DNA of 64,000 nt from Bacillota bacterium (GTDB taxonomy: Bacteria > Bacillota > Clostridia > Christensenellales > UBA1242). The stretch lies in the NCBI GenBank assembly GCA_009784185.1, contig WRCD01000002.1, positions 53,384 through 117,383 on the forward strand. Direction: 5' to 3'. This document shows positions 8,760-57,000 of this stretch, one piece after another. A program made the position numbers and the translations under genes. The notes beneath the pieces are model-generated. The model was not told where the DNA came from. It saw only the letters and a list, made by a program, of their open reading frames with translations, and did not search any database. Position 1 is the first letter of the stretch. Every line of letters begins with the position of its first letter.

Positions 8760-8846
8760 AATTCCCCCTTGATAAAGAGGTGGGCGAGCAACTCAGTAAA
8801 ATTCCCCCTTTAGCAAAGGGGGTGGTGCGAAGCGCCGGGGGTTGTG
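8760..8846 (+). repeat. Family A palindromic repeat, two tandem copies (first degenerate)
   Basis: AATTCCCCCTTGATAAAGAGGTG..., then AATTCCCCCTTTAGCAAAGGGGGTGGTGCGAAGCGCCGGGGGTTGTG. Confidence 0.85.
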
Positions 8847-8889
8847 ATAGCCTGTCTCTTTTTCTTTTCAAAAATTTTGCATTTACCTA

Positions 8890-8919
8890 TTGACTTTTGG
8901 TTAGGGGGGGGGGCATAAT
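8890..8919 (+). promoter_or_regulatory. Sigma-A-like promoter with a G10 tract in the spacer
   Basis: TTGACT-18bp (includes G x10 at 8904-8913)-CATAAT. Confidence 0.6.
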
Positions 8920-8949
8920 GTATCTATACAACAATTAAGGAGATAAAAA

Positions 8950-9534
8950 ATGGAAGATAAGGCTAAAGAAACAATGGACTGGTTTGCAAAGGAAAGGGCT
9001 GCTTATGCAGAGCGAGAGGCAAAGAAGATATCTGATTTAGGTTCGGCACTTGCTGCAATTGCGGAATCCCACAGAAGGCAGCTTGTTAAGTTGGTAAATT
9101 TTGATTTTAGTGACAATTTACAAAATAATTTTGAAGTGGCCAAGGCTGTTGTTATCAAGTGTCCGGATATTCAGTTGAAATTTGATTTGGGGGATAGAGG
9201 GCCAGAATTGGGAGTGTATCGCAACTTTGCTAAGGCGATTGAAGAAGCTGCCGAATTTTGTGCTACCGGAGAATTAATAAGTAGCAATGATCATACATAT
9301 TATGTGAAAGTAGCACTATCATATCCTGGCTATGGCAAAGACTATGATTTAATATCTCGCAAACAGAAAGGTGCAATATTTAAAGAGGTTTGTGAGGCCA
9401 AGGCAAAGGAGGCTACCCCAAACGCTACCCTAGCACGCAATTTCAGCAGATACACCGTTTTGCCAAGGGGAATTGAAATAGTTAAGGATACTTTTTTTAA
9501 GACTTATGATGCTATAAAAGCTATGGCAAAGTGA
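8950..9534 (+). CDS. Hypothetical protein
   Basis: 194 aa ORF with AAGGAG SD and its own promoter; no recognised motif. Confidence 0.7.
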   Translation: MEDKAKETMDWFAKERAAYAEREAKKISDLGSALAAIAESHRRQLVKLVNFDFSDNLQNNFEVAKAVVIKCPDIQLKFDLGDRGPELGVYRNFAKAIEEAAEFCATGELISSNDHTYYVKVALSYPGYGKDYDLISRKQKGAIFKEVCEAKAKEATPNATLARNFSRYTVLPRGIEIVKDTFFKTYDAIKAMAK

Positions 9535-9606
9535 TATTAGCTTAGGGCTGTAAAAAACCAAGTAAAAACCAGCTTGGTTTTTTGTTTTATATGATACAAT
9601 ATACTT

Positions 9607-10395
9607 ATGTACAATCCACAGAAACAAAACTTGTTCAAGCGTATTATTTTAGTGCTGTTTCCGCGGCACTTAAAGTGCGTTTGCTGTAATACCGACCTGC
9701 CGGAGAAAAGCGAATACGCTTTTTGTGAAAGTTGCGAAAAAGCCTTGCCGCTTAACAACGGCAATGTCTGCACGCGCTGCGGAGTATACCTGAGCCAAAG
9801 CGGCAGGTTATGTTTAGCCTGCAAGGCGCATACTGCTAATTACGTCGAAGCGCGCGCTCCGCTACGGTACAAAGATAAAGTGCCGACTTTAATTCGTAGG
9901 TTTAAATACGACAACCAGCAATATCTTGCAAACGTATTCGGGCGGCTTATGCTGGACTCGTATTTACTTAGCGGCTGGCAGGCAGATTGTATCATTCCGG
10001 TTCCGTTGTTTGAAAGAAGGCAAAAACGCAGAGGATATAATCAGGCGTACCTCCTGGCAAAATACATATCCGATAAAACACAAATTCCGCTTGATATAAC
10101 TAATCTTGTAAGAATAAAAGACACGCCCACTCAGGTTAAGCTTACGTACAAACAGCGCGCACAAAACCTGGAGCGTGCGTTTAAGGTCTTAAACAAGCAG
10201 GAGCTTAAAGGTAAGACTGTGCTTTTAATAGACGATGTTATTACAACCACCGCAACAATCAATGAATGCGCTTTAGCACTAAACAAAGCCGGAGTAAAAG
10301 CCGTTTACGCCCTATCTGCCGCCAGAGCCGACCAGAAAACACCAATGGCAGGCACACCAAAAGAGTCATTGCCGGTAAATGTGCTGTACAACTAG
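9607..10395 (+). CDS. comF: ComF family protein (double zinc ribbon + PRTase)
   Basis: CxxC pairs, IIPVPL, RGYNQA, LLIDDVITT. Confidence 0.92.
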   Translation: MYNPQKQNLFKRIILVLFPRHLKCVCCNTDLPEKSEYAFCESCEKALPLNNGNVCTRCGVYLSQSGRLCLACKAHTANYVEARAPLRYKDKVPTLIRRFKYDNQQYLANVFGRLMLDSYLLSGWQADCIIPVPLFERRQKRRGYNQAYLLAKYISDKTQIPLDITNLVRIKDTPTQVKLTYKQRAQNLERAFKVLNKQELKGKTVLLIDDVITTTATINECALALNKAGVKAVYALSAARADQKTPMAGTPKESLPVNVLYN

Positions 10396-10399
10396 TAAA

Positions 10400-10507
10400 A
10401 ATTCTCCCTTAAGCTAAGGGGGTGGTGCGGAGCGCCGGGGGTTGTGATAAACTAACAGAACACAACCCTCCCGCCTGCGGCGTACTCCCTTAGCTTAAGG
10501 GAGAATT
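10400..10507. repeat. Family A inverted doublet (REPIN-like)
   Basis: Forward unit 10400-10446 and reverse unit 10461-10507, 14-bp spacer. Confidence 0.9.
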
Positions 10508-10659
10508 GATACGGCGAAAATTTAAACTGTTTTAAGCTTTGGCTTGTAAGTAGCAAAATAATTACCATAAATACAAAATCCTCCCCAAGCAAGGGGGATT
10601 TTTGTTGTGCAAAACAATAGTCAATAATTAATAAATTTGGTATAATATTCTGTAGAGAT

Positions 10660-10770
10660 AATTCTTCCTTAAGCTAAGGGAGTACCGCTAGCCTAGCGGG
10701 GAGGGTTGTGTTTCATATCCTGTCACAACCCCCGGTGCTTTGCACCACCCCCTTTACTAAAGGGGGAATT
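10660..10770. repeat. Family A inverted doublet in the secA leader
   Basis: Forward 10660-10710, reverse 10724-10770; between TATAAT (10641) and the secA SD. Confidence 0.9.
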
Positions 10771-10791
10771 ATTAATTCAAGGAGAACATCA

Positions 10792-13500
10792 ATGGCTTTT
10801 TTAGGAATATTTGCCTCAGACAATGAGCGCGCGCTGAAGCAGGTTGAAAAAACTGCGCAAAAAATAGAAGCGCTTTCTGATAAATACAAGGCAATGAATG
10901 ATACCGAGCTGAGAGCAGTTACGCCTGCGCTTAAGGCTAGGCTTGAGGCGGGTGAAACATTAAACGACATCCTGCCGGATGCCTTTGCCGCAATCCGCGA
11001 AGCCAGTGTGCGTGTTATAAATCAGCGCCCTTTTCATAGTCAGGTTGTGGGCGGAATTGTGCTGCATCAGGGCAGAATTGCCGAAATGAAAACAGGTGAA
11101 GGTAAAACGCTGGTGGCAACTCTGCCGGCTTATTTAAACGCGCTTGCCGGCAAGGGAGTGCACGTAGTTACGGTAAACGAGTACCTGGCCGGCCTTGCTG
11201 CAGAATGGATGGGTAAGATTTTTAAATTTATGGGGCTTAGCGTTGGCTGCAGCTTTAGTCAGATGGACCCTATGCAAAAGCGGGATGCTTATGCCTGCGA
11301 TATTACTTATGTAACAAACAGCGAACTCGGTTTTGACTATCTGCGTGATAACATGGCGCAAAAAGCCCAGGACAGAATGCAGCGCGGGTTTAGTTTTGCT
11401 ATTGTTGACGAGGTGGACAGCATTTTAATTGATGAAGCCCGAACCCCGCTCATTATTTCCGGCCGCGGCTTTAAAAGCAGTGATACGTACACTAAGGTTC
11501 AGCGGTTTATAAAAACCTTAAAGCGCGATACCGACTACAAGGTGGACGAAGAGAAAAAAGCAATTCACTTAACCGAGGACGGGCAGGAGCGGGCAGAGCA
11601 GCATTTTGGAGTTGAAAGCTTAAGCGACATGAATGCAATGGAGCTTAACCAGCATATTATGAACGCCTTGCGAGCTAACTACATGATGCGCCGTGAATCG
11701 GATTATATTGTAAAAGACGGCGAGGTTCTGCTGGTAGACGAGTTTACCGGCCGTATTATGGACGGCAGGCGGTACTCCGACGGTTTGCATCAGGCAATTG
11801 AGGCCAAGGAAGGCGTTCAGGTAAAAGATGAGCTGCTTACGGTGGCAAGTATTACTTTACAGAACTATTTCAGAATGTATAAAAAACTATCGGGCATGAC
11901 CGGTACCGCCAAAACCGAGGAAGGCGAATTTAACAAGATTTACGGCTTGGACGTTGTTAGTATCCCGACCAACCTGCCAATGATAAGAGTAGACGAACCC
12001 GACATTGTTTATGTAAACACAGCGGGCAAGCTGAAAGCTATTGTTAACCGTATTGAAGAAGCACATACAATAGGGCAGCCGGTGCTGGTTGGCACAACAA
12101 CAATTGAAAAATCCGAAGAAATTAGCAAAATGCTGAAACAAAAGAAGATTCCGCACCATGTGCTTAACGCAAAGTACCACGAACAGGAAGCTGAAATTGT
12201 GGCACAGGCCGGAAGACACGGCGCGGTTACAATTGCTACAAACATGGCGGGCCGTGGTACCGACATCCTGCTTGGAGGAAATCCCGACTTTCTGGCTAAG
12301 CAAAGCATGATAAAATCGGGCTATAATCACGCTCAGATTGAGCTTGCAAGCAGTTATCACATTGAAGCGGCCACAGACGAAACCAGAAAAGCAAAAACTG
12401 ACTTCGGTTCGGCAATAAAGAAGTTTTCATCTGAAACACAGGAAGAAAAGAAACGGGTAGTTGAAGCGGGCGGATTGCTTATAATCGGTACCGAGCGCCA
12501 TGAGTCCAGGCGTATAGATAACCAGCTAAGGGGGCGCGCAGGACGTCAGGGCGACCCCGGCAGAAGTGTATTTTACATTTCGCTTGAGGATGACCTTATA
12601 AGGCTTTTTGGAGGCGACAGGCTTAAAAGCATATCCGGGTTCTTCAGGCTTGATGAAGACACGCCGTTTCAGATTAAAATGCTTAGTAAGCAGATAGAGA
12701 ATGCTCAGAAAAAGGTTGAGGCCAACCATTACGGCATGCGCAGACGGCTGATTGAATACGATGACGTTATGAATAAACAACGCAGCCTGATATATGAGCA
12801 GAGAAATAAGATTCTGGACGGGCACGACGTGCACAGCGAGATTGTAGATATGTTCCCCGATATTGTGCGCGAGACAATTTACAAGGCTATTGATACCGAT
12901 AAGCCTAGTTTTGAGTGGAATTTAGACGAGATTAACGACACGCTTGAGGATAAGATATTCAAAAAAGGCACACGTTTTATAACCGAGAAAGACATTGAAG
13001 ACACCGACGAACATGAGCTGGTTGATAAAATATTAGACTATATTAATACCCAATACGAAACCAAAATAAAAGAAGTTGAAGAGCTTGGTATTAAGCATGA
13101 TATGATAGAGCGGTTTATTTTGCTTAGCAATGTTGACCGGGCATGGATGGAGCATATAGACGCCATGACAACTCTCAGGCGCGAAATCGGCACATTAGCG
13201 CACGGAAACCAGGACCCGATTGTTGCATATAAGCGCGAGGCGTTTAGTAAGTTTGATGAGATGATTGCTAAAATCCGCGAGAATACCGCAACCGTGCTGT
13301 TGAACCTGGAAAAGCCAACGGTTACGGTTACGCCGGCTGCTCCGCGCCCGCCGATGCAGAATTTGCAGACAGGAACCGAAACCATGCGCGGCGAAACTCC
13401 GCGGGTAGCCAAAGGCCCAGCTAAAAGTGATAAGCTAACCGGCAGAAACAGCCCATGCCCGTGCGGCAGCGGAAAGAAGTATAAAAACTGCTGCGGCTAA
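10792..13500 (+). CDS. secA: Preprotein translocase subunit SecA
   Basis: MKTGEGKT, DEVDSILIDEARTPLIISG, IDNQLRGRAGRQGDPG, C-terminal CPCGSGKKYKNCC; start at ATG after AAGGAG. Confidence 0.98.
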   Translation: MAFLGIFASDNERALKQVEKTAQKIEALSDKYKAMNDTELRAVTPALKARLEAGETLNDILPDAFAAIREASVRVINQRPFHSQVVGGIVLHQGRIAEMKTGEGKTLVATLPAYLNALAGKGVHVVTVNEYLAGLAAEWMGKIFKFMGLSVGCSFSQMDPMQKRDAYACDITYVTNSELGFDYLRDNMAQKAQDRMQRGFSFAIVDEVDSILIDEARTPLIISGRGFKSSDTYTKVQRFIKTLKRDTDYKVDEEKKAIHLTEDGQERAEQHFGVESLSDMNAMELNQHIMNALRANYMMRRESDYIVKDGEVLLVDEFTGRIMDGRRYSDGLHQAIEAKEGVQVKDELLTVASITLQNYFRMYKKLSGMTGTAKTEEGEFNKIYGLDVVSIPTNLPMIRVDEPDIVYVNTAGKLKAIVNRIEEAHTIGQPVLVGTTTIEKSEEISKMLKQKKIPHHVLNAKYHEQEAEIVAQAGRHGAVTIATNMAGRGTDILLGGNPDFLAKQSMIKSGYNHAQIELASSYHIEAATDETRKAKTDFGSAIKKFSSETQEEKKRVVEAGGLLIIGTERHESRRIDNQLRGRAGRQGDPGRSVFYISLEDDLIRLFGGDRLKSISGFFRLDEDTPFQIKMLSKQIENAQKKVEANHYGMRRRLIEYDDVMNKQRSLIYEQRNKILDGHDVHSEIVDMFPDIVRETIYKAIDTDKPSFEWNLDEINDTLEDKIFKKGTRFITEKDIEDTDEHELVDKILDYINTQYETKIKEVEELGIKHDMIERFILLSNVDRAWMEHIDAMTTLRREIGTLAHGNQDPIVAYKREAFSKFDEMIAKIRENTATVLLNLEKPTVTVTPAAPRPPMQNLQTGTETMRGETPRVAKGPAKSDKLTGRNSPCPCGSGKKYKNCCG

Positions 13501-13968
13501 ATTCCCCTCTATAAGAGGGGTGGCGGCGGAGCCGACGGGGTGTGGATGAAAACAGAAATGCAAAACAATAAAAACTCTGATTTGCCTTGTAATATAGAAC
13601 TAAAGAAACTAGCCTCCGAGTTAAGAAAGGCAGGCAACTTGTCGGAGGCTTTGTTGTGGTTGCAAATAAAGAACCGGAAGCTTAAAGGGCTGTGCTTTGA
13701 CAGACAAAAAGTTATTGGTAATTATATAGTGGACTTTTACTGTGCGGACAAAAGAGTTGTAATTGAAATTGACGGCACAACACATGATTACAAATATGAG
13801 TACGATAAAGAACGAGATGAATATTTGAAAAGTTTTGGATTGAAGGTTGTTCACATCTTGGATATAGATGTTAAACAAAATTTGGCGGGCGTGATGCAAT
13901 TTTTGGAGGAGAATATATAATTTGTATCCACACCCCGCCCTGCGGGCACCCCTCTTATAGAGGGGAAT
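13501..13968 (+). mobile_element. Putative element: DUF559 endonuclease gene bracketed by inverted family A repeats
   Basis: The left end (13501-13547) and the reverse complement of the right end (13926-13968) share an identical outer 22 bp (ATTCCCCTCTATAAGAGGGGTG) and inner 12 bp (CGGGGTGTGGAT). Confidence 0.7.
13546..13920 (+). CDS. DUF559 (Vsr/PD-(D/E)xK-like) endonuclease domain protein
   Basis: ELRK..SEALLW, RQKVIGNYIVDFYC, VIEIDG..H, YDKERDEYL..GLKV. Confidence 0.9.
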   Translation: MKTEMQNNKNSDLPCNIELKKLASELRKAGNLSEALLWLQIKNRKLKGLCFDRQKVIGNYIVDFYCADKRVVIEIDGTTHDYKYEYDKERDEYLKSFGLKVVHILDIDVKQNLAGVMQFLEENI

Positions 13969-13986
13969 CTTTTGTTAGGTTGTTGT

Positions 13987-15510: not shown

Positions 15511-15533
15511 GCTATAGGTATATGTGCTGCTGC

Positions 15534-15675
15534 AATGAATAATGAATAATGAATAATGAATAATGAATAATGAATAATGTCGGGTCGCTTTCGCTCCGAA
15601 CAAATGCTGTCATTGCGAGCACGCACAAAATTCCCCTCTACAAGAGGGGTGCCGAGTTTGCGAGGCGGGGTGTGG
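15534..15675 (+). repeat. Mosaic repeat: (AATGAAT)x6 + GGGTCGCTTTCGCTCC + truncated family B (GTCATTGCGAGC) + family A unit
   Basis: Heptamers 15534-15575; family B head 15609-15620; family A 15629-15675. Confidence 0.85.
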
Positions 15676-25073: not shown

Positions 25074-25268
25074 ATTTTAGTAAAATATTTAAAATAGTAG
25101 TTGACACTAGCAACTAGCTATGCTATAATTAAAAATCTGATATTATTTAGTTGTGGTGTGGTTGACTATTGGTTTGCAAAAAATTTAATTGTAATTTACT
25201 CTCCAAATCGTTTTAGCCGAGCGGAGCAAATGCTTGTTTTTATACGGCATTTTTTTGTGTTTTACAGT

Positions 25269-25311
25269 GTCATTGCGAGCAATTCTATTCCGGATTCCAA
25301 CGAAGCAATCC
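25269..25311 (+). repeat. Family B repeat in the rpoB leader
   Basis: GTCATTGCGAGCAATTCTATTCCGGATTCCAACGAAGCAATCC, nearly identical to 35850-35892. Confidence 0.85.
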
Positions 25312-25448
25312 CCCGGTTAGAAGTTCAATCCATCTTGCAAAGACAAAATCTTTACCACCAAGCCACAGCCCCATGGTATCAAAATTAATTACATATGGCA
25401 ACTAAATTTTAGCAAGTTTTAAAAATAAATATTTTTAGGAGAGTATCA

Positions 25449-35790: not shown

Positions 35791-35892
35791 AATGAATAAT
35801 GAATAGTGAATAATGAATAATGTCGGGTCGCTTCGCTCCAGGAAGTGCTGTCATTGCGAGCATTTCTATTCCGGATTCAAACGAAGCAATCC
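35791..35892 (+). repeat. Mosaic repeat: (AATGAAT)x4 + GGGTCGCTTCGCTCC + complete family B unit
   Basis: Same order of modules as 15534-15620. Confidence 0.85.
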
Positions 35893-36071
35893 GCTGGACA
35901 GAAGTCAAGAGTTGTAGGTGCACAAAGCAAAATTACCCAATTCCTTCGGGGCGGAAAGACGGAGTAACAGCGGTCAAAGAAGAGTCCGTGCTGTTGGCCG
36001 CGGCAAGGCCGCGACTAGCCGCTTGGCGTTAGCCGAGCGCAAAAAACAAGTACAATTCATATATGTTTTGT

Positions 36072-37491: not shown

Positions 37492-38298
37492 ATGGAAAGG
37501 AAACAGGAACAACTTTATTATAAAAACAAGAAACACATTGCATCAAGGGTGCAAAAAGAGCCGCAGCCTGATGAGGACAAGATTTTAGCATATCTTAAAA
37601 GCGGCAATTGCTTCGTAGCTTCGCCTGGAATTGCTGATGATATTTTTGCGCCTGAAAAACGCATTCTTGGCCCGTACTGTTATACCGATGGCGAGTGGGA
37701 CTGGGACAGTGCGCTAGTCTATTACATAGAAAACTACCACTTCAGAATCTCAGACGAATTTCTTGCGCATATAAAGGCTAAAAACTGGAAGTGTCATAGA
37801 ATGTCAAAAAAAGAGATATATGGATTTTGCAAGGCAGATTATATGGAAACATTAATGCGTATAGCTCTTGTTGAAGCCAAAAAGGCTGCTGCTGCCGACG
37901 AAGTGCCGGTGGGTGCTGTGGTTGTTAGAGACGGAGAGATTGTTGCGCGGGCACATAACTGTAAAATAAAAAACAACTCGGCATTTGCGCACGCCGAGCT
38001 AATAGCAATGACCAAAGCCGCAAAAAAACTGGGGGATTGGCGCCTTAACGAGTGTACGCTTTTTGTAACGTTAGAGCCATGCCCCATGTGCGCGGGTGCA
38101 ATAATAAACGCCAGAGTAAAGGAAGTGGTGTTTGGGGCATACGACCCCAAAGCCGGCTGCTGCGGCACGCTGTATAACTTGCCGGAAGATAAGCGCTTTA
38201 ACCACCGAGCAAAAGTAACCGGCGGAGTGCTGGAAGAAGAATGCGGCAGGATACTGACAGAGTATTTTAAAACGAAACGGAAAAATTCCCCTCTATAA
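37492..38298 (+). CDS. tadA: tRNA adenosine(34) deaminase TadA with an extra N-terminal domain of about 117 aa
   Basis: EVPVGAVVV, AHAEL, VTLEPCPMCAGA, YDPKAG; TadA core begins at ATG 37843. Confidence 0.88.
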   Translation: MERKQEQLYYKNKKHIASRVQKEPQPDEDKILAYLKSGNCFVASPGIADDIFAPEKRILGPYCYTDGEWDWDSALVYYIENYHFRISDEFLAHIKAKNWKCHRMSKKEIYGFCKADYMETLMRIALVEAKKAAAADEVPVGAVVVRDGEIVARAHNCKIKNNSAFAHAELIAMTKAAKKLGDWRLNECTLFVTLEPCPMCAGAIINARVKEVVFGAYDPKAGCCGTLYNLPEDKRFNHRAKVTGGVLEEECGRILTEYFKTKRKNSPL

Positions 38299-44201: not shown

Positions 44202-44202
44202 A

Positions 44203-44683: not shown

Positions 44684-45178
44684 TTGCTGTATACAACTCT
44701 TGGGCAGGGGTATGTTTTTCTGGCGCTTTTAGCATTGGGTGCGGGGGCAAGTTTAGCCTGCCGTCCGCTTTTGCTATATGTCAAATTAAAATTCCCCTCA
44801 GGGCCGGACAAAAAACATACAGATACGAGAGCTGTCATTGCGAGCCTGGCTAGCGGAGCCAACAAACGAAGCAATCTTCAATATAGTACTCATTTATTTA
44901 AAAAAGGGCTTGTTTTTACTGTGGACCTACTGGTCTGCCTGTTTTTTGCAGGCGTGTTCTGGTTTGGGCTTTTGCTTTTTCATTTTGGGGAGTTCAGGCT
45001 TTTTTGTTTGCTGGGGTTTTTAACCGGAATTTTACTGGAAAAACTATTGCTGGCAAAAACAGTTGATTTTTTATTATTAAAAGCGTATACTCTGCTGGCT
45101 AAGATAGTTTTAAGATTGAGGTCTAAGCTATGCAGAAAACCAAAACCAAAACAGGATTTAAACTCGGCAAAACAATGA
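44684..45178 (+). CDS. yabQ: Spore cortex protein YabQ-like, with a repeat-derived loop insertion
   Basis: Q..VFL, DLL, GEFRLF..LGF..G; lies between yabP and the divIC-like gene. Confidence 0.75.
   Translation: MLYTTLGQGYVFLALLALGAGASLACRPLLLYVKLKFPSGPDKKHTDTRAVIASLASGANKRSNLQYSTHLFKKGLVFTVDLLVCLFFAGVFWFGLLLFHFGEFRLFCLLGFLTGILLEKLLLAKTVDFLLLKAYTLLAKIVLRLRSKLCRKPKPKQDLNSAKQ
44834..44876 (+). repeat. Family B unit inside yabQ
   Basis: GTCATTGCGAGCCTGGCTAGCGGAGCCAACAAACGAAGCAATC. Confidence 0.8.
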
Positions 45179-45486: not shown

Positions 45487-45563
45487 CGCGGGGTGGAGCA
45501 GTTCGGCAGCTCGTTGGGCTCATAACCCAAAGGTCGTAGGTTCAAATCCTACCCCCGCTACCA
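45487..45563 (+). tRNA. tRNA-fMet (CAT), initiator
   Basis: Unpaired C1, three G-C pairs in the anticodon stem (TTGGG-CTCATAA-CCCAA), TTCAAAT T-loop, CCA end; TTGACA promoter upstream. Confidence 0.95.
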
Positions 45564-45600
45564 TTAAAATAAAAAAGCCGGAAGACTTTTTTATTTTAAA

Positions 45601-45750
45601 ATGAAGTGCCTAGCGGCATGAGGGTATGAAGCAGCTAACGCTATGAAGTGCAGACAAGTCTGCATGACGGATAAATTTAAAGGCGCTTTACTTCATATTG
45701 CAAAGCAATACTTCATAAGGCGAAGCCGTCTTCATAAGCGAAGCGACTTC
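45601..45750. repeat. Family E element, second copy (between tRNA genes)
   Basis: ATGAAG/ATGAGG/ATGAAG/ATGAAG/ATGACG then CTTCAT x3 + CTTC, separated by small hairpins. Confidence 0.75.
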
Positions 45751-45760
45751 TCTAAAACGT

Positions 45761-45837
45761 GGCGGCGTAGCTTAGTTGGTTATAGCGGCCGGTTCATACC
45801 CGGCAGGTCGATGGTTCGAATCCATTCGCCGCTACCA
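45761..45837 (+). tRNA. tRNA-Met (CAT), elongator
   Basis: GGCGGCG acceptor, GCCGG-TTCATAC-CCGGC anticodon arm, CGCCGCTACCA end. Confidence 0.9.
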
Positions 45838-45892
45838 TTTCAAATTACACCCTTATGTTTCATGTTTCTCGTTTCACCTTTCACGTAAACAT

Positions 45893-45967
45893 GGCCCCTT
45901 GGTCAAGCGGTTAAGACACCACCCTTTCACGGTGGTAACACGGGTTCGAGTCCCGTAGGGGTCACCA
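45893..45967 (+). tRNA. tRNA-Glu (TTC)
   Basis: GGCCCCT acceptor, CCACC-CTTTCAC-GGTGG anticodon arm, GTTCGAG T-loop, CCA end. Confidence 0.95.
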
Positions 45968-47822: not shown

Positions 47823-47949
47823 ATCGCAAAATCAAAACTTATTGAAATCAAAATCGCAAATTCAAACAGGGAATAATCAAAAATGATGGGTGTCGCAAAA
47901 TCAAATCAAAAAATCAAAAGCAGACATCATGGTGTGCAAGCCCAAAAAA

Positions 47950-48877
47950 GTCACGGGGACGGAGGTGTTGACACAGAAAACAGTTGACAACGTCCACAAA
48001 AACTCTTACAATCTAAATTGTAGGAGTTTTTGTTTATGCCAAGGAAAGCAAGAAAAGATACAGATGGAAAGTTTTTCCATGTAATGGTGCAGGGGATTGG
48101 TAAAGAATATATTTTTCCTGATGACGATTGCAAAGGCTATTATCTATCCTGTTTGAAGAAAAGTAAAACCAAGCTTCCCGCTAAAATACTTGCTTATTGC
48201 GTGATGGGCAACCATGCGCATGTTTTGGTGAGTGTTCAAAATGCGCAGGAGCTAGCTTTGTTTTTAAGGCAAGCAAACGGAGATTACGCCAGATATTATA
48301 ACAACACTCGCAACAGGGTGGGCTACGTGTTTAGAGACAGGTATCGGAGCGAAGTGATTCAAGATGAGCGATATTTAATACATTGTGTGGCATACATACA
48401 CAACAACCCGTTAAAGGCGGGGTTGGTGGAACGTGCAGAAAACTATAAATATTCAAGCTATGTTAATTACTTAACCAAGAAGGGCATGGTAGATTTTGAT
48501 GAGGCGGCTAAGTTGTTTGATACAAGTGAGAGAAGCATGAGAGCTATCATGTTGGAAAAAACCGGAGCGAACTGGCTGGAGCATGACGACAAAGAATATG
48601 AAGACAAACACAAAGTATTGACTGAATTAATAAAAAAGTATAATATATCGTCAAAGGCATCGGTTAGAAACGAAGAACTTGCTAAGGCGCTGACTATGGA
48701 GTTGCAAGAGAGAAGCGGTGTCAGTTTGCGGGAAGTCGCAATATTATTGGAGGTTAGCCGAGAATGGTTAAGAAGAGTTGTGTCAACACCCCCGTCCCCC
48801 TGACCATCCCCGTGACCACCCCCGTCCCCCTGACCATCCCCCTGACCACCCCCGTCCCCCTGACCATCCCCCTGACC
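47950..48877 (+). mobile_element. RAYT-like Y1 transposase element with 25-bp inverted ends and a tandemly amplified right end
   Basis: 47950-47974 and 48780-48804 are inverted repeats (23/25 match); a 30-bp unit is repeated three times at 48787-48876. Confidence 0.8.
48036..48803 (+). CDS. REP-associated tyrosine transposase (IS200/Y1_Tnp HUH family)
   Basis: MPRKAR, FHVMVQG, AYCVMGNHAH (HUH), GYVFRDRYRS, YIHNNPLKAG, YKYSSY, C-terminal HTH. Confidence 0.92.
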   Translation: MPRKARKDTDGKFFHVMVQGIGKEYIFPDDDCKGYYLSCLKKSKTKLPAKILAYCVMGNHAHVLVSVQNAQELALFLRQANGDYARYYNNTRNRVGYVFRDRYRSEVIQDERYLIHCVAYIHNNPLKAGLVERAENYKYSSYVNYLTKKGMVDFDEAAKLFDTSERSMRAIMLEKTGANWLEHDDKEYEDKHKVLTELIKKYNISSKASVRNEELAKALTMELQERSGVSLREVAILLEVSREWLRRVVSTPPSP

Positions 48878-49330
48878 ATGGACAAAAAAGAGTTTTTCAG
48901 AATTACGCAGGAAGTCTTTGCTGAATATGGGTTTAAGGTGGATGGGAAGTATTTTTATTTAGATTTGTCAGAGGTTCATATTACTGCAGTCCTTGCAAAA
49001 GCACATGGCATTTATTTCTTGGGGTATAATTTTAGTATTAAAGCAATACATGAAGGGGAAATTAAGCCTAGAGACGAATTTGCCGGACACGACAGTCACT
49101 TGATAAACATGAGCAATTATAAAAATGAACGGTGGCTTGAATATGAAAACATGCCAAAAGAGACGTACATTAATGACCTAAAAGAAATGCTTCCAAGATA
49201 TTTTAATCCGTACAAAAAAGATGCTATAGGTTACATTAAAAAAATTGCTGTTATACCGGGCGTTATTTACAAAAAAGACATAGTGGTAATCTTCAAAGAA
49301 GCGCAGGCATATTTAGGAATCAAGTATTAA
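48878..49330 (+). CDS. Hypothetical protein
   Basis: ATG right after the tandem repeats; the longer ORF-track start translates the repeats. Confidence 0.65.
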   Translation: MDKKEFFRITQEVFAEYGFKVDGKYFYLDLSEVHITAVLAKAHGIYFLGYNFSIKAIHEGEIKPRDEFAGHDSHLINMSNYKNERWLEYENMPKETYINDLKEMLPRYFNPYKKDAIGYIKKIAVIPGVIYKKDIVVIFKEAQAYLGIKY

Positions 49331-51130: not shown

Positions 51131-52537
51131 ATGACGTTTAAGAAAGGTAATCTCAAAGGAGTTCAAAAACTGCTTGGCTTAATGGTCGTTTCGTCGCTTG
51201 TATTACTTTGCGGAATTACATTCGCAACTGCGGGCATGCCGGGGAACAAAGGCATCGGAACTGTGCACGCGTCGGCGCCAACCGGCTCTGTTACCTGGGA
51301 ATTTACGGCTGCAACTCCAAACGCAAGCGGCATCAACGATACGCACTTCAACGGGACTTACGCTTGGGACAGAGACTCGCTAACCTTGACCTTGGAAAAC
51401 TTTGTCTATTCATCTTCGGCAGCACGTACGCTTATGTTGCCCGATGGTGCAACCTTAACTTGTAAAGGTGTCAACACGCTGATAAACACAAACATGTACA
51501 TCGGTCCAGAGATTGCAGATTCAGTCGTTATATTCGTTGCAGCAGGTCGTGCGTTAACAATTAACGGCAGCGGAACTTTGAGTGCCTATTGTATCGGAAG
51601 TGTTGATTGGTATTCCGCGGCTATTGAAGGCCGTCAGGATAGTGTCATTACTATAACCGGTGATGTTACCGTAAATGCAAAAGGCGGGACCACTATGTTT
51701 GGCGTCGATACTTTTGTGGGCCATCGCAGTAGTGGCATTCTGTATGCAGACCTTATTATCAGCGGAAATGCAAAAGTTACGGCAACCGGAGGGACAAGTG
51801 TTTCTTGGAGTTATGGTATACAGTATAGTGGTTCCGGCTCGTCTGTGACAATTTGTGATTCGGCCTCTTTGATTGCAACGGGCGGTACTTTGGTTGTTGA
51901 TTCAAGCAACTATAGCGTTGGTGTTTATTCCCCTAACGCCACTCTTACTGTTAATGATTCAGCATCTTTAATTGCCAAAGGCGGCACAGGCCATCAAAGC
52001 GCGGGTATTATATTCGGTGGCGGCATTCTTACTATCAATGATTCAGCATCTGTGATTGCCGATGGCGGCGCAGGTCGTGAGAACATAGGTATTATAAATG
52101 ACGGCACTGCCGCTATTGCAATTAACGGCGGTTCACTTGAGGCGTTTGGCGACGATAGGGCTTTTATTAGACCTTATACCGTTCCGAATGATTTCAAGTA
52201 TTCATTCAGCGGGAACATAGACGGAAGCAACCCTGCCACGGGCACTAGTAATGGCAGTTTTTCTATTGGCAACTCGTCTCAATATAAGTGGGCGAAAATC
52301 TGGAAACATGTCGAAACGACGGGCGGCGGCGGTGACGGCGGAGATGGTGATGGCGGAGATGGCGGAGATGGTGACGGTTCGGGCGGCGGTTCAGACGGCG
52401 ATGGTACAGAACCCGGTGGTAATGGTGGTTTGAGCACCGGCGCGGTTGTAGGTATTGCTGTAGGTTCTTCGGCAGCGGCGGCGGGCGTAACATTTGGAAT
52501 TTGTTGGTTTTTGTTAAGAAAAAGGAAAGTGGTGTAA
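51131..52537 (+). CDS. Surface beta-helix repeat protein with signal peptide, Gly/Asp linker and C-terminal TM anchor
   Basis: Repeats 'TINDSASLIA.GG...S.GI', GGDG linker, GLSTGAVVGIAVG...FLLRKRK. Confidence 0.8.
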   Translation: MTFKKGNLKGVQKLLGLMVVSSLVLLCGITFATAGMPGNKGIGTVHASAPTGSVTWEFTAATPNASGINDTHFNGTYAWDRDSLTLTLENFVYSSSAARTLMLPDGATLTCKGVNTLINTNMYIGPEIADSVVIFVAAGRALTINGSGTLSAYCIGSVDWYSAAIEGRQDSVITITGDVTVNAKGGTTMFGVDTFVGHRSSGILYADLIISGNAKVTATGGTSVSWSYGIQYSGSGSSVTICDSASLIATGGTLVVDSSNYSVGVYSPNATLTVNDSASLIAKGGTGHQSAGIIFGGGILTINDSASVIADGGAGRENIGIINDGTAAIAINGGSLEAFGDDRAFIRPYTVPNDFKYSFSGNIDGSNPATGTSNGSFSIGNSSQYKWAKIWKHVETTGGGGDGGDGDGGDGGDGDGSGGGSDGDGTEPGGNGGLSTGAVVGIAVGSSAAAAGVTFGICWFLLRKRKVV

Positions 52538-52554
52538 ATAAAGGAGGCTAGCGA

Positions 52555-52893
52555 ATGTTTTTAGCAATATTGTTTCTTTTAGCCGAAATTATTTTAATCC
52601 TGACCATTGTGTTTTCTGTTATGTTTTTGCCGGTATCCGTTACATTTACCTGCTTGTTTTTTCCGCTGCGGAAAAAGAATCTTAAAGAACTAAGCCCCAA
52701 ACAAAAGAAAATGGCCGGGCAAAGTTTTGATAGATTTAAAAATTCAAAAAAAGGCAAAAAAACACCGGACTTGAAAATAGAACAATACTTGCCTATTCTT
52801 GCCAAGCGCGGTAAAAAATATCTGATTGTATCAATTGTTTTTGCGGTTTATCTCATTGCGGCAATCGGTTTGTATGCGGGGGTGTTCCAATGA
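52555..52893 (+). CDS. Small membrane protein
   Basis: Two hydrophobic segments flanking a basic loop; AAGGAGG SD. Confidence 0.65.
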   Translation: MFLAILFLLAEIILILTIVFSVMFLPVSVTFTCLFFPLRKKNLKELSPKQKKMAGQSFDRFKNSKKGKKTPDLKIEQYLPILAKRGKKYLIVSIVFAVYLIAAIGLYAGVFQ

Positions 52894-53699: not shown

Positions 53700-53759
53700 T
53701 ATGAAATTGAAAGTGAAAGCACTTATTGTATTTTACAAGTATCTTAAGGAGGAAGGATT

Positions 53760-55181: not shown

Positions 55182-55226
55182 TCTGAAAGCTTTGCAGTAA
55201 ACCGCTTTTTATGCTACAATAAGCCC

Positions 55227-56036
55227 ATGCATGACATATTGGTATTTTTAAGCAGCACAATGACCACTCCAACGCCGTTTGGATGGTTTCATATTATGTG
55301 GCTGGTAATTACGGTTGCGGCAACGGTGCTGCTATGCGTGTTTTTCCGGAAATGCACCGATAAGCAATACCGGTGGATAATGCTTACAATCGGCATCATC
55401 TGCATTTTAATGGAGGTTTATAAGCAGGTGGTTGTCTCATACAATATAGGCACTCAAACCTGGAGTTACAAGTGGCATATCTTTCCGTTTTTAATGAGTT
55501 CAACTCCTATATACGCTTGTTTGATTATCGGCTTTGTTAAGAATATTTCTTTCAGAAACTGGCTGACCGCGTATTTGGCAACTTTTATCATGTTTGGCGG
55601 ATTTGGGGTAATGGTTCAACCGGGGCAGGTGTTTACGGCTACAATCGGCGTAAACATTCAAACCATGTTTTTGCATGGCGCAATGTTTGTGGTTGGCGTG
55701 TTTACAATAGTATCAGGCAAGTGTGGAGTAGATTGGCGGAGCAGCTGGAAAACAATACTTAAGGGCATGGCGGTTTTTGCTGTATGTGTAGCCATAGCAT
55801 TGGCGCTTAATCTTATTACCTGGGCAGCTGAAATCGGGCAATATTTCAATATGTTTGAAATCAGCCCGTATTACCCAAACAGATGGCCGATACTGGCCGG
55901 CATCTGGGAGAACCAGCACTATGTGGTGTTTCTGCTGGCATATTATGCAATAATGTCATTCTTTGCCGCACTGTTTTATTACATGGTGCTCGGCATTAAA
56001 ACCGGAGTTGCAAAGTTGGCGCAGAAACGCAGTTAG
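55227..56036 (+). CDS. YwaF/TMEM164-like integral membrane protein
   Basis: FGWFH, E.YKQ, W..FPF..SS, QTMFLHG, FNMF.ISPY. Confidence 0.7.
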   Translation: MHDILVFLSSTMTTPTPFGWFHIMWLVITVAATVLLCVFFRKCTDKQYRWIMLTIGIICILMEVYKQVVVSYNIGTQTWSYKWHIFPFLMSSTPIYACLIIGFVKNISFRNWLTAYLATFIMFGGFGVMVQPGQVFTATIGVNIQTMFLHGAMFVVGVFTIVSGKCGVDWRSSWKTILKGMAVFAVCVAIALALNLITWAAEIGQYFNMFEISPYYPNRWPILAGIWENQHYVVFLLAYYAIMSFFAALFYYMVLGIKTGVAKLAQKRS

Positions 56037-56043
56037 AACAAAC

Positions 56044-56066
56044 AAAAACCACCGATTAGGTGGTTT
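56044..56066. terminator. Bidirectional terminator
   Basis: AAAAACCACCGATTAGGTGGTTT between convergent genes. Confidence 0.7.
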
Positions 56067-56070
56067 ATTG

Positions 56071-56778
56071 TTATTCTACATTTTCGTTTAAGCTGTTCAT
56101 GTAATCTAAAAAGAGCTTTAAAATTTCTTCTTTACTGTTGGTTTTAGCCAGTTCTCTGTAATACATCGGCTTGCCTATAGTAATCTGTTTTTTGTTTGCG
56201 CGTGTGTAATGCACTGTGTAAATGGGCAGGTCAATTCCGTGTTTGGTGTAATATATTTTGGCCAGCTGTAAAAATCCCGGCCATAATTTCTCTATTTTTT
56301 CATTATAGCCTTTGCTGCTGTCCTCGGGAAAGATTAATACAGGAACCTCGGCGTTGAGGCAATCTATTGAGTATTCAAAAGTGTGGCGCAGACGGTCGTC
56401 ATAATAAACCGGCACTACTCCAACAGAAGCGTATACAAATCCGGCAACCAGACCGAACAATGTGGCAACCACAAATGCGCGCGGCTTTTTCCAGCCCAGC
56501 TTCTGGCGGTAAAAAACATAGTATAGGTATTTCCAGCGGCTGATAAAGCCCTCGCACATCTGGTGTGCACCCCATGGCATATAATACTTGCCCAGATACG
56601 CGCCCTGGCTGACCGGTCCGCCGGCTCCGTTGTGGTTGCTTATTATTATACACTTATCGGGCAGAGGAGAATCGTTTAGGTTTACAAGCTTTATTTTTGC
56701 TTTAAAGGTTTTAACAAAAAACCTGATTAATTTTGCAAACCAGCCGAGCTCCTTTCTAACCTTAAACTTTCTTTTCAT
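56071..56778 (-). CDS. PlsC-like (LPLAT) acyltransferase
   Basis: IIISNH, VVPVY, VLIFPED, IGKP. Confidence 0.75.
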   Translation of the reverse strand: MKRKFKVRKELGWFAKLIRFFVKTFKAKIKLVNLNDSPLPDKCIIISNHNGAGGPVSQGAYLGKYYMPWGAHQMCEGFISRWKYLYYVFYRQKLGWKKPRAFVVATLFGLVAGFVYASVGVVPVYYDDRLRHTFEYSIDCLNAEVPVLIFPEDSSKGYNEKIEKLWPGFLQLAKIYYTKHGIDLPIYTVHYTRANKKQITIGKPMYYRELAKTNSKEEILKLFLDYMNSLNENVE

Positions 56779-56953
56779 TTGAAAACCGCCAGTTGTTTGT
56801 TATGTAATATTGCCATTATAGTCTAGTTTATGATTTTGTCCAAATGTTTTGTCATGGTTTCTTTCAATTCCCTGTCTATTCGTGAAAAACAGGCAAAGAA
56901 TGCGGTTTTGCCGGGGGTGCCGGCAAAGGAGAAAGGATGTATACTTTTCCTAA

Positions 56954-57000
56954 CCACACCCCGTCGGCTGACGCTGATACCCCTCTTGCAGAGGGGAATT
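56954..57000 (-). repeat. Family A singlet (reverse) in the spoIIE leader
   Basis: CCACACCCCGTCGGCTGACGCTGATACCCCTCTTGCAGAGGGGAATT. Confidence 0.85.

What the first reader, a model, noticed from the sequence alone, without database searches (positions are those of the whole stretch)
8760..57000. About 19 copies of a two-hairpin repeat conserved in structure rather than sequence, with C-GNA-G triloops
Seen: units start at 8760, 8800, 10400, 10461, 10660, 10724, 13500, 13926, 15629, 20659, 20728, 32827, 34000, 34063, 36341, 36962, 38284, 40991 (partial) and 56954. Hairpin 1 shows compensatory changes (CCCCTCT/AGAGGGG, CCCCCTTT/AAAGGGGG, CCCTT/AAGGG, CCCCTCC/GGAGGGG). Hairpin 2 changes stem sequence freely but usually keeps a three-base loop when read in element orientation: GTCAC-GAA-GTGAC, CGGC-GGA-GCCG, GCCC-GCA-GGGC, CAGGC-GAA-GCCTG, CCAC-GAA-GTGG, GCCC-AAA-GGGC. 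Known: d(C-GNA-G) triloops form exceptionally stable DNA mini-hairpins. Inference: selection acts on a folded single-stranded DNA substrate on one particular strand.
Basis: partly seen in the sequence, partly recalled or inferred. Interest (0 to 1): 0.75.

Follow-up and report, generated by a model that had tools for sequence, protein, structure and literature searches.

The report
Triplex-folding repeats flanking a small nuclease
The repeats are real and belong to a family found across many bacterial phyla, whose conserved parts fit a folded DNA triple helix and which in many genomes bracket a small nuclease gene.

Summary

First, there is a third conserved segment, a 3' G/T box. It covaries with hairpin 1 as a mirror image, not as a complement. 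G in the purine arm goes with G in the box, and A goes with T or A. This is the rule of an antiparallel purine-motif triple helix. At the two variable positions, 394 of 405 cells fit, against a shuffled mean of 258. Hairpin 2 is only the connector and is missing in some copies.

Second, the family is not specific to this genome. A capped scan returned 128 loci from many phyla. The only recurrent neighbouring gene is a DUF559 Vsr-like nuclease, lying between two inverted copies. The window has this arrangement at 13497-13972. Such cassettes often sit in frame inside host genes, especially restriction-modification genes.

The closest known relatives are the E. coli BoxC/PIT/TMECO intrastrand-triplex repeats (PMC4666352). 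No mobility gene was reported for those.

Triplex folding and nuclease action on the element are inferred, not shown.

The parts
8760..8799 (+). Degenerate partial copy: 5' AATT and an imperfect hairpin 1 only
   Evidence: Not found by model R1.
8797..8844 (+). Full copy, subfamily B (CCCCCTTT / AAAGGGGG / box GGGGGTTG). Hairpin 2 is GTGC-GAA-GCGC.
   Evidence: 40.8 bits
10397..10444 (+). Full copy, left half of a tail-to-tail pair
   Evidence: 31.2 bits
10462..10510 (-). Full copy, subfamily C (R-arm TAAGGGAG, box GAGGGTTG), right half of the pair
   Evidence: 14.9 bits
10657..10705 (+). Subfamily C copy, left half of a pair upstream of secA
   Evidence: 8.5 bits, weak
10726..10773 (-). Subfamily B copy, right half of the pair
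   Evidence: 40.9 bits
13497..13544 (+). Left end of the DUF559 cassette. It overlaps the secA stop codon (13498-13500).
   Evidence: 53.1 bits
13546..13920 (+). DUF559 (Vsr-like PD-(D/E)xK) nuclease gene. Its ATG follows directly after the 3' box.
   Evidence: Pfam DUF559 2.5e-29. PDB 3HRL 3.9e-14. 1699 homologues at E<=1e-10. Invariant D63, E74, D76, H80.
13929..13972 (-). Right, inverted end of the DUF559 cassette
   Evidence: 48.5 bits
15626..15674 (+). Solo copy between divergent genes
   Evidence: 44.3 bits
20656..20701 (+). Left half of a pair (27-nt spacer)
   Evidence: 57.8 bits
20729..20781 (-). Right half of the pair. Hairpin 2 has a GTCA loop.
   Evidence: 49.7 bits
32828..32872 (-). 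Solo copy after rpoC, antisense to the flanking genes
   Evidence: 43.6 bits
33997..34050 (+). Left half of a pair (14-nt spacer), CCCCTTT type with box GGGGTAG
   Evidence: 44.9 bits
34065..34110 (-). Right half of the pair, box GGGGTAT
   Evidence: 50.1 bits
36338..36382 (+). Copy lying in frame inside the M14 peptidase ORF, nested in a second repeat
   Evidence: 51.4 bits
36959..37001 (+). Copy that encodes the C-terminus of the same ORF
   Evidence: 56.5 bits
38281..38327 (+). Copy that supplies the stop codon of the deaminase ORF 37492-38298
   Evidence: 52.9 bits
40950..41020 (-).
   Evidence: 25.2 bits
56955..57003 (-). Solo copy upstream of spoIIE
   Evidence: 35.3 bits

Best explanation
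The repeat is a roughly 45-55-nt interspersed element with a fixed order of parts:
- AATT
- a pyrimidine arm (CCCCTYY)
- a short loop
- a purine arm (RRAGGGG)
- a T
- a mini-hairpin connector
- a G/T-rich third segment (GGGGTRK)

On the element strand as single-stranded DNA, hairpin 1 and the third segment can fold back into a 7-triad antiparallel purine-motif triple helix. The triads are C-G*G, T-A*T and T-A*A. In the published nomenclature this is a class II intrastrand triplex. Hairpin 2, with its C(GNA)G loop and a G.A mismatch at its base, is a stable and freely variable turn.

Two inverted copies, with their 3' boxes facing inward, form the ends of a tiny cassette. Its only gene is a DUF559 Vsr-like nuclease. 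Pairs and solo copies without the gene, which make up most of the window's copies, are gene-less relatives in the manner of MITEs.

Shown: the family, its spread across phyla, the mirror covariation, the strand-specific features, the cassette layout, and in-frame cassettes inside host genes.

Inferred:
- The triplex forms in the cell when the strand is exposed.
- The DUF559 nuclease recognises or cuts the folded or paired ends.
- Spread is by break-and-copy (homing-like) recombination, using the repeats as homology.
For: Family and spread:
They come from Bacteroidota, Bacillota, Pseudomonadota, Verrucomicrobiota, Planctomycetota, Cyanobacteria, Chlamydiota, Acidobacteriota, Patescibacteria and others.
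- Of 159 unique pattern matches, 149 have at least 2 further hairpin-1 pairs.
- Model R1 gives 218 matches, 207 of them unique.

Triplex rule (207 unique copies):
- Position 5: T-A with box T in 196; C-G with box G in 3.
- Position 6: C-G with G in 141; T-A with A in 50.
- Position 7: C-G with G in 134; T-A with T in 38; T.G with G in 23.
- Positions 6-7 fit in 394 of 405 cells. Shuffled boxes give a mean of 258, with a maximum of 286 in 2000 shuffles.
- Extra haplotypes also obey the rule: window subfamily C (TAAGGGAG with GAGGGTTG), subfamily B (GGGGG with GGGGG) and L093:420-465 (GGAGGAG with GAGGTGG).
- 13 sources hold at least 2 purine-arm haplotypes. In 8 of them every haplotype has a matching box (L057, L039, L074, L024, L010, L083, L128 and the window). 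Four hold a mismatched one (L079, L032, L003, L040) and L081 has a gap.
- In the window, an automatic parse gives 110 of 116 triads compatible.
- Copies with only CA between the purine arm and the box exist in L047 and L048.
- A triplex of the same class was shown in vitro, by CD and NMR on single strands, for E. coli TMECO. Purine-motif triplexes are stated not to form in RNA (PMC4666352, sections read).

Nuclease link:
- tblastn with the window's DUF559 protein hits 13 of 128 loci. The Y1 transposase-like ORF of the window hits none.
- In all-against-all clustering of 1130 ORFs from the loci, DUF559 is the only family seen in more than 3 loci (14 loci).
- The layout 'copy, gene, inverted copy' is seen in the window and in L121, L012, L093, L071, L074, L032 and L047.
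- 26 of 120 homologues and 69 of 147 representatives carry peptides translated from the element at their ends.
- Catalytic-type residues are invariant in 52 sequences.

In-frame cassettes:
- 36 of the 47 long representatives scanned have a named host domain besides DUF559/MTES_1575. These include Type_ISP_C (14), Methylase_S (7), Eco57I/MmeI types, QueA, FumC, Mur ligase, iPGM and Aminotran_5.
- Where Pfam shows the host domain on both sides, or the junctions were read, DUF559 lies inside the host protein.
- This is confirmed on DNA in L047, L012 and L093.
Against: - No experiment shows the triplex or the nuclease activity.
- For the E. coli relative, the published in vivo footprint and the double-stranded DNA spectra did not show a triplex (PMC4666352, Discussion).
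- No target-site duplication was seen outside the AATT ends in 39 tail-to-tail units.
- A PD-(D/E)xK nuclease alone cannot join strands, so true transposition is not explained.
- The DUF559 gene was not found on 72,556 plasmids (E<=1e-15) or 50,697 phages (E<=1e-10).
- For cassettes at one site in Type ISP genes, the host part and the nuclease part are equally diverged (63.7% and 63.6%, r=0.39). This fits old co-inheritance as well as homing.
- Only about 10% of sampled loci hold the gene.
- The haplotypes may be few old lineages, so the number of independent covarying events is smaller than the cell counts suggest.
- The model and the scan pattern fix the G and C runs, so only positions 5-7, and position 2 in rare types, are informative.
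Confidence: 0.5

Rival explanations
1. The repeats are passive intrastrand-triplex or hairpin motifs with no dedicated enzyme. They would spread and decay through replication slippage and recombination, as proposed for E. coli TMECO. The DUF559 gene would be a separate selfish homing-endonuclease-type gene that lodges between repeat pairs, or is often bracketed by them.
For: - About 90% of sampled loci have no DUF559 gene.
- Tail-to-tail pairs can hold other contents, with spacers of 97, 121 and 325 nt in L047 and L048.
- The published E. coli work found no mobility genes near TMECO.
- DUF559 is classed with the EDxHD homing endonuclease I-Bth0305I (PMC3424549, Table 1 passage; PMC9403480 passage).
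Against: - The gene's start abuts the 3' box, and its 3' end often runs into the inverted box (the '...HPAL' ends). This holds across phyla.
- It is the only recurrent neighbour.
- That precision is hard to reconcile with chance bracketing.
Confidence: 0.25
2. The copies act at the RNA level, as bidirectional intrinsic terminators or as 3'-end stabilisers of transcripts. Structure would then be selected in RNA.
For: - Read on the opposite strand, hairpin 1 followed by AATTTT is flagged as terminator-like at 8 window copies.
- Copies are intergenic or at gene ends.
- Tail-to-tail pairs would terminate transcription in both directions.
Against: - The strand-specific features lie on the strand that is not the terminator strand: GNA loops, G.A mismatches, T.G wobbles and the third segment.
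- A terminator does not predict the mirror covariation.
- Copies in the forward orientation follow genes as often as reversed ones.
- The T run is short.
- E. coli PIT elements are reported to lack promoter and terminator activity (PMC4666352 introduction).
- Many copies are translated inside ORFs.
Confidence: 0.12
3. They are REP/REPIN elements mobilised by a RAYT (Y1 HUH transposase), such as the Y1 transposase-like ORF at 48030-48803.
For: - They are short, structured extragenic repeats that often occur in inverted pairs.
- A Y1 transposase-like ORF is present in the window (Pfam Y1_Tnp 4.1e-10; NCBIfam REP_Tyr_transpos 79.3 bits against a cutoff of 80).
- Its flanks hold G-rich motifs that loosely resemble the 3' box.
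Against: - tblastn of that ORF against 128 loci gives 0 hits.
- No copy of the element flanks it. The best model match nearby scores 9.7 bits at E=1.5.
- There is no GTAG or CGTC tag at the 5' end.
- The two halves of a pair differ in hairpin 2, so they do not form a REPIN-type long hairpin.
Confidence: 0.04
4. The inverted copies are recombination sites of an invertible switch that flips the DUF559 segment. When the cassette lies in frame, flipping would switch the host gene on and off.
For: - 'DUF559 domain-containing protein' is listed as 14.3-fold enriched among predicted programmed-inversion targets, next to restriction-modification genes (PMC9881135, table passage only).
- Cassettes sit in frame in restriction-modification genes.
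Against: - No recombinase gene recurs near the copies.
- Inversion does not explain solo copies, or the triplex rule within a single copy.
- The enrichment may simply reflect the flanking inverted repeats.
Confidence: 0.07

Closest known systems
BoxC / PIT / TMECO intrastrand triplex repeats of E. coli and other Proteobacteria (Holder et al. 2015, PMC4666352; earlier work by Hoyne and Maher is cited there)
   Same: - The order of parts is the same: 5' pyrimidine arm, loop, purine arm, loop, 3' G/T reverse-Hoogsteen arm (class II purine motif).
- Both are G/C-rich, intergenic, found in both orientations, often in inverted pairs, and present in many copies.
- Single-strand triplex formation was shown in vitro for TMECO.
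   Different: - Sequence differs: 7-triad CCCCTYY arms against 9-triad CCCTCNCCC arms. Model R1 does not detect TMECO no. 9.
- Here the second loop is usually a 10-24-nt mini-hairpin.
- This family spans many phyla.
- It is linked to a DUF559 nuclease cassette, whereas that paper reports no mobility genes.
- One lead: E. coli ycjD (DUF559) ends 168 nt from TMECO no. 9.
REP / REPIN elements with RAYT transposases
   Same: - Both are short, structured extragenic repeats in high copy.
- Both occur singly, in inverted pairs and in clusters.
- For both, a single-stranded fold on one strand is thought to be the active form.
   Different: - No RAYT is associated (0 of 128 loci).
- There is no GTAG or CGTC tag.
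- A third, triplex-type segment is present.
- The associated gene is a PD-(D/E)xK nuclease, not an HUH enzyme.
Homing endonuclease genes of the EDxHD / Vsr-like group (I-Bth0305I), and inteins as in-frame selfish inserts
   Same: - DUF559 is placed in the same PD-(D/E)xK group as Vsr and I-Bth0305I.
- Cassettes recur at the same position of homologous host genes and keep the host frame open.
   Different: - There is no intron and no Hint or intein domain.
- The ends are structured DNA repeats that are translated as Pro/Gly-rich linkers.
- Homing is not shown, and the divergence data are ambiguous.
Rickettsia palindromic elements and other MITEs that insert in frame into genes (recalled, not looked up)
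   Same: Both are short palindromic repeats found both between genes and in frame within ORFs (window 36338; L047).
   Different: This family has a different sequence, a triplex-type third segment, and an associated nuclease cassette.

Membership tests
Class II purine-motif intrastrand triplex motif (as defined in PMC4666352) | Order of parts: 5' pyrimidine-rich arm, then purine-rich arm, then 3' reverse-Hoogsteen arm | tested here: met
   Alignments A2-A4. All 17 parsed window copies show this order.
Class II purine-motif intrastrand triplex motif (as defined in PMC4666352) | Triads limited to C-G*G, T-A*T and T-A*A along the stem | tested here: met
   593 of 607 cells fit at positions 5-7, and 394 of 405 at positions 6-7, against a shuffled mean of 258. 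Positions 1-4 are nearly invariant C-G*G.
Class II purine-motif intrastrand triplex motif (as defined in PMC4666352) | Both loops short (1-6 nt in the ITxF search) | tested here: not met
   The second connector is 8-24 nt or more in the pattern-matched copies. Only short forms such as those in L047 and L048, with loop CA, meet this feature.
Class II purine-motif intrastrand triplex motif (as defined in PMC4666352) | Triplex formation by the isolated strand | not testable with these tools
   Needs CD, NMR or melting experiments. Only the E. coli relative has such data.
TMECO / BoxC sequence family | Pattern CCCTCNCCC N3-6 GGGNGAGGG N3 GGGNGAGGG | tested here: not met
   The arms differ. R1 scores at most 7.5 bits on the K-12 locus that holds TMECO no. 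9. An element-plus-gene query finds no match in 5,426 E. coli genomes.
REP / REPIN-RAYT system | An associated RAYT (Y1 HUH) gene flanked by the repeats | tested here: not met
   0 of 128 loci. The window's Y1-like ORF is not flanked by copies.
REP / REPIN-RAYT system | A conserved GTAG or CGTC tetranucleotide next to the hairpin (recalled definition) | tested here: not met
   The 5' end is (A)ATT. GTAG occurs only inside the box of GGGGTAG-type copies.
MITE | Terminal inverted repeats shared with a gene-bearing parent element | tested here: met
   Tail-to-tail pairs with 13-55-nt spacers and gene-bearing units with 325-506-nt spacers share the same ends.
MITE | Target-site duplication | tested here: inconclusive
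   No direct repeat is seen outside AATT in 39 units. AATT itself is palindromic and could hide a duplication.
Homing endonuclease gene (EDxHD / Vsr-like) | A nuclease of the family with intact catalytic residues | tested here: met
   Pfam DUF559 2.5e-29. 3HRL 3.9e-14. D63, E74, D76 and H80 are invariant in 52 sequences. The grouping with I-Bth0305I is taken from PMC3424549. A fold prediction could not be run.
Homing endonuclease gene (EDxHD / Vsr-like) | Insertion at the same site of homologous genes, with cleavage of the empty site | tested here: inconclusive
   8 cassettes lie at Type_ISP_C profile position ~168-190 and 6 at ~269-287. QueA has cassettes at ~36 and ~250. Host and nuclease parts are equally diverged. 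Cleavage is not testable here.
Intrinsic terminator | G+C-rich hairpin followed by a T run on the transcribed strand | tested here: inconclusive
   Met only on the antisense strand of the element, with a short run (AATTTT). Forward copies behind genes do not meet it.
Any Rfam family | Match at the gathering score | tested here: not met
   Only 3 tRNAs reach gathering score in the window. On a pair and on 8 loci, only weak miRNA-like hairpin matches appear.

The most novel reading that the evidence does not exclude
DUF559 proteins are structure-specific nucleases for intrastrand DNA triplexes. Together with triplex-forming ends they would make a new class of mobile cassette. Such a cassette would spread by break-and-copy, and could live in frame inside genes, especially restriction-modification genes, as an intein-like domain insert. 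The same partnership would explain the long-unexplained BoxC/PIT/TMECO repeats of E. coli, through ycjD.
Probability: 0.25. Interest if true: 0.9.

Novelty: new variant of a known kind. Interest (0 to 1): 0.8.

Why it matters
- Intrastrand-triplex repeats have been known in E. coli since the 1990s, without a function, a partner protein or evidence that the triplex matters in cells.
- This family offers natural three-way covariation across phyla, which is the kind of evidence that established RNA structures.
- It also offers a candidate partner enzyme that can be purified and tested.
- It shows that current triplex searches, which assume short loops, miss a large family.
- It gives a testable function for DUF559, a large family of unknown function (30,787 representatives at E<=0.001).
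- It explains many odd 'fusion' proteins and Pro/Gly-rich tails in gene predictions.
- It points to restriction-modification genes as a habitat for an in-frame selfish cassette.

Tried and rejected
- **RAYT link.** tblastn gave 0 of 128 loci. Rejected.
- **Rfam.** No family matched.
- **Literature by sequence strings.** 83 papers held one of six strings; none of the 20 listed was relevant.
- **Literature by keywords.** I searched 'DUF559' (25 papers), 'EDxHD / I-Bth0305I', and 'ycjD / Vsr-like / miniature inverted-repeat / triplex'. No listed title or abstract, and none of the five DUF559 passages I opened, linked DUF559 to repeats or triplexes. RepRanger (PMC12306157) has no matching motif in its main text.
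- **Plasmids and phages.** No DUF559 homologue at the thresholds used.
- **E. coli.** The element-plus-gene query found nothing. ycjD is present in 3378 of 5426 genomes at one locus. The ycjD-less allele of IAI39 is a larger rearrangement, with no clean empty site.
- **Target-site duplication.** None seen.
- **Homing or co-inheritance at the Type ISP site.** Inconclusive.
- **Spacers of window pairs compared with the cassette interior.** Only a weak resemblance by eye; not relied on.
- **Orientation against genes in the loci.** A crude ORF method gave 51 sense and 35 antisense, with no clear bias.
- **Supplement of PMC4666352.** Could not be searched. It may list short-loop members of this family.

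Full report
**1. The observation**

The sequences at all 19 listed positions are copies of one element. In element orientation the window consensus is AAAATT-CCCCTCT-ATA-AGAGGGG-TG-[hairpin 2]-(C)GGGGTGTGG.

I built a covariance model (R1) from 74 copies and ran it without filters over the window.
- It finds 16 full-length matches at E<=2e-6.
- It finds two weaker matches from a divergent subfamily (10462-10510 minus, 10657-10705 plus).
- It finds no other convincing copy.
- The copy at 8760 is a degenerate partial.

A plain 11-mer from the 5' end is also far above chance: 15 matches against 3.05 +/- 1.84.

Ten copies lie on the plus strand and eight on the minus strand. Four short tail-to-tail pairs exist: 10397/10462, 10657/10726, 20656/20729 and 33997/34065. 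In each, the AATT ends point outward. A fifth pair, 13497/13929, encloses a gene.

The copies are intergenic or overlap gene ends. Copy 36338 is the exception: it lies in frame inside a peptidase ORF.

**2. Hairpin 2**

Six window copies share an identical 9-nt 3' part and a 23-nt 5' part that differs only at the first base of 13929. Yet they have six unrelated hairpin-2 sequences.

Over 194 parsed copies from all sources:
- There are 144 different hairpin-2 connectors.
- 129 have triloops: 96 GNA and 22 ANA.
- 122 of the 129 triloops are closed by C-G.
- A G.A mismatch sits next to the outer G-C pair in 63 copies. By eye there are also forms with tandem GA/AG mismatches; I did not count these.

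On 114 distinct copies, 94.6% of cells pair, against 55.6-66.1% when partners are slid.

**3. The third segment**

The 3' box was not part of the finding, but it carries the strongest signal. It varies with hairpin 1 as a mirror image:

| Pyrimidine arm / purine arm | 3' box |
|---|---|
| CCCCTCC / GGAGGGG | GGGGTGG |
| CCCCTCT / AGAGGGG | GGGGTGT |
| CCCCTTC / GAAGGGG | GGGGTAG |
| CCCCTTT / AAAGGGG | GGGGTAT |

Read against the purine arm in antiparallel register, G always faces G, and A faces T or A. These are the canonical triads of a purine-motif (reverse-Hoogsteen) triple helix.

The counts on 207 unique copies are. At the two variable positions, 394 of 405 cells fit. Shuffling boxes among copies gives a mean of 258 and at most 286 in 2000 trials.

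Further points:
- Rare types obey the rule at other positions. These are window subfamily C (TAAGGGAG with GAGGGTTG), subfamily B (five G with five G) and L093:420-465 (GGAGGAG with GAGGTGG).
- Where hairpin 1 has a T.G wobble, the box matches the purine arm in 24 cases, against 3 that go the other way. This is as expected if the third strand reads the purine strand.
- 13 sources hold two or more purine-arm types. In 8 of them every type has a matching box. Four hold a mismatched type and one has a gap.
- Some copies have only CA between the purine arm and the box (L047, L048). So hairpin 2 is an elaborated turn, not a core part.
- On the complementary strand, the T at box position 5 (196 of 207 copies) becomes A. 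This does not fit the pyrimidine-motif rule.
- Neither a Watson-Crick pairing nor a direct repeat explains the pattern. This last point is my own reasoning from the four haplotypes.

Caveat: the haplotypes may be few old lineages. The cell counts therefore overstate the number of independent events.

**4. DNA or RNA**

- The strand-specific features all sit on the element strand.
- The element strand is more stable than its complement in 188 of 201 copies with DNA parameters, and in 123 of 201 with RNA parameters.
- Copies occur in both orientations relative to neighbouring genes. In a crude count of 118 copies, 51 were sense and 35 antisense between co-directional ORFs.
- PMC4666352 states, citing Semerad and Maher 1994, that purine-motif triplexes do not form in RNA.
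- Against this, hairpin 1 followed by AATTTT on the opposite strand is terminator-like. A side role in transcription cannot be excluded.

**5. Distribution**

One scan of genome contigs was made, with a pattern that fixed only AATTCCCC, GGGGTG and GGGGT.

Nearly all hits are true members: 149 of 159 unique matches have at least two further hairpin-1 pairs.

The hosts include Chryseobacterium, Pedobacter, Flavobacterium, Serratia, Daejeonia and many metagenome-assembled genomes. Phyla represented include Bacteroidota, Bacillota, Pseudomonadota, Verrucomicrobiota, Planctomycetota, Cyanobacteria, Chlamydiota, Acidobacteriota, Nitrospirota and Patescibacteria.

Model R1 adds partner copies that the pattern missed, for 218 matches in all. 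Neighbouring copies are tail-to-tail in 41 cases, head-to-head in 25 and tandem in 22.

**6. The associated gene**

The window pair 13497/13929 encloses a 124-aa DUF559 protein.
- tblastn with it hits 13 of the 128 loci at 48-65% identity. The Y1 transposase-like ORF of the window hits none.
- Clustering all 1130 ORFs of the loci shows DUF559 as the only family present in more than three loci.
- The layout is constant. A copy in gene orientation lies just upstream, and an inverted copy lies just downstream. This is seen in the window and in L121, L012, L093, L071, L074, L032 and L047.
- The gene often runs into the inverted box, giving the common '...HPAL' ends.
- Among 120 close homologues, 26 carry peptides translated from the element. 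Among 147 cluster representatives, 69 do.
- The family is large: 1699 proteins at E<=1e-10 in one search, and 259 representatives at E<=1e-30 in another.
- D63, E74, D76 and H80 are invariant in 52 sequences.
- PMC3424549 groups DUF559 with Vsr and the homing endonuclease I-Bth0305I.

**7. In-frame cassettes**

Of the 147 representatives, 51 are 290 aa or longer. I scanned 47 of these against Pfam, and 36 show a named host domain besides DUF559/MTES_1575:

| Host domain | Number of proteins |
|---|---|
| Type ISP specificity domain | 14 |
| HsdS (Methylase_S) | 7 |
| Eco57I / MmeI-type enzymes | 5 |
| QueA | 3 |
| DNA methylases (N6_N4_Mtase) | 2 |
| Mur ligases | 2 |
| iPGM | 2 |
| FumC | 1 |
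| Class V aminotransferase | 1 |

In the cases read, the junctions are translated copies of the element.

On DNA, three loci confirm this:
- L047 holds a 952-aa methyltransferase-type ORF that stays open through seven copies and the nuclease gene.
- L012 holds a Type ISP gene split at the same site as seven of the representatives.
- L093 holds an HsdR-like gene.

The same sites recur. Type ISP has cassettes at profile positions ~168-190 (8 cases) and ~269-287 (6 cases). QueA has them at ~36 and ~250.

For seven cassettes at the first Type ISP site, the host and nuclease parts are equally diverged (63.7% and 63.6%, r=0.39). So old co-inheritance and homing cannot be told apart.

A table in PMC9881135 lists DUF559 proteins as 14.3-fold enriched among predicted inversion targets. 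This fits the flanking inverted copies.

**8. Comparison with what is known**

No Rfam family matches.

The closest described system is the BoxC/PIT/TMECO repeat of E. coli (PMC4666352; I read the abstract, sections 15, 16 and 20, and passages).
- It is a class II purine-motif intrastrand triplex with 9-nt arms and 3-nt second loops.
- It forms a triplex as an isolated strand in vitro.
- It did not show a triplex in double-stranded DNA or in an in vivo footprint.
- It has no known function or mobility gene.

The present family has the same architecture. It differs in sequence, in having a hairpin as its second loop, in its much wider host range, and in its nuclease cassette.

As a lead only: E. 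coli ycjD, a DUF559 gene, ends 168 nt from TMECO no. 9, with TM-like remnants at its stop codon. ycjD is present in 3378 of 5426 complete E. coli genomes.

In the library I searched, no listed title or abstract, and none of the DUF559 passages I opened, links DUF559 to these repeats.

**9. Verdict**

- The repeat is real and under strong structural constraint.
- The constraint fits a folded single-stranded DNA with a triple helix better than two independent hairpins.
- The family is the end structure of a small DUF559 cassette, with many gene-less relatives.
- Triplex formation in cells, the nuclease's substrate and the way copies spread remain inferred.
- No target duplication was found, and no plasmid or phage carrier.

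Noticed in passing
window 48030-48803 (+), with flanks 47930-48030 and 48792-48893: A Y1 transposase-like ORF lies here (Pfam Y1_Tnp 4.1e-10; NCBIfam REP-associated tyrosine transposase 79.3 bits against a cutoff of 80). It is followed by a C-rich tandem array (five overlapping 42-nt windows, spacing 12/18 nt) and preceded by a related G-rich motif. It is not linked to the two-hairpin element.
   Followed up: partly
window 15603-15627, 25263-25324, 35844-35905, 44828-44880, 33777-33837 (-), and around 36300-36400: A second interspersed repeat has conserved ends GTCATTGCGAGC ... CGAAGCAATCC. One copy is split by element 36338, so the two repeat families are nested.
   Followed up: no
window 15531-15600, 35791-35840, 6402-6465 (-): Tandem AATGAATAATG runs are followed by GTCGGGTCGCTTCGCTCC. 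They lie next to copies of the second repeat.
   Followed up: no
window 36063-37043 (+): The M14 peptidase ORF stays open through an insert of about 45 aa, made of the second repeat plus element 36338. Its last residues are encoded by element 36959.
   Followed up: partly
window 13498-13500 and 38296-38298: The secA stop codon overlaps the 5' end of element 13497. The DUF559 cassette continues in the same frame after that stop. The deaminase ORF 37492-38298 ends inside the loop of element 38281.
   Followed up: partly
L047 277-3132 (contig JANJUO010000033.1): A 952-aa MmeI/Eco57I-type methyltransferase ORF stays open through an array of seven element copies, two translated spacers and a DUF559 gene. 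This looks like a cassette array inside a gene.
   Followed up: partly
L129 (E. coli K-12 NC_000913.3 1349800-1352000): ycjD (DUF559) ends 168 nt from TMECO no. 9. It has a partial duplication of its own 3' end and TM-like remnants in between. ycjD is absent from 2048 of 5426 complete E. coli genomes.
   Followed up: partly
loci L002, L007, L013, L026, L030, L033, L044, L058, L067, L072, L076, L077, L107, L108, L124: In Chryseobacterium and its relatives, hairpin 2 is a long A/T-rich stem (CAAAAATTC-AAA-GAATTTTTG) that is nearly constant across species. Few of these loci share flanking ORFs with any other locus in the clustering. In the window's genome, by contrast, hairpin 2 differs in almost every copy.
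   Followed up: no
window 45487-45964: Three tRNA genes lie in a cluster.
   Followed up: no
window 59391-61949 and 51903-52070: Large ORFs carry internal repeats with a period of 81-108 nt. One of them has a GLUG motif.
   Followed up: no
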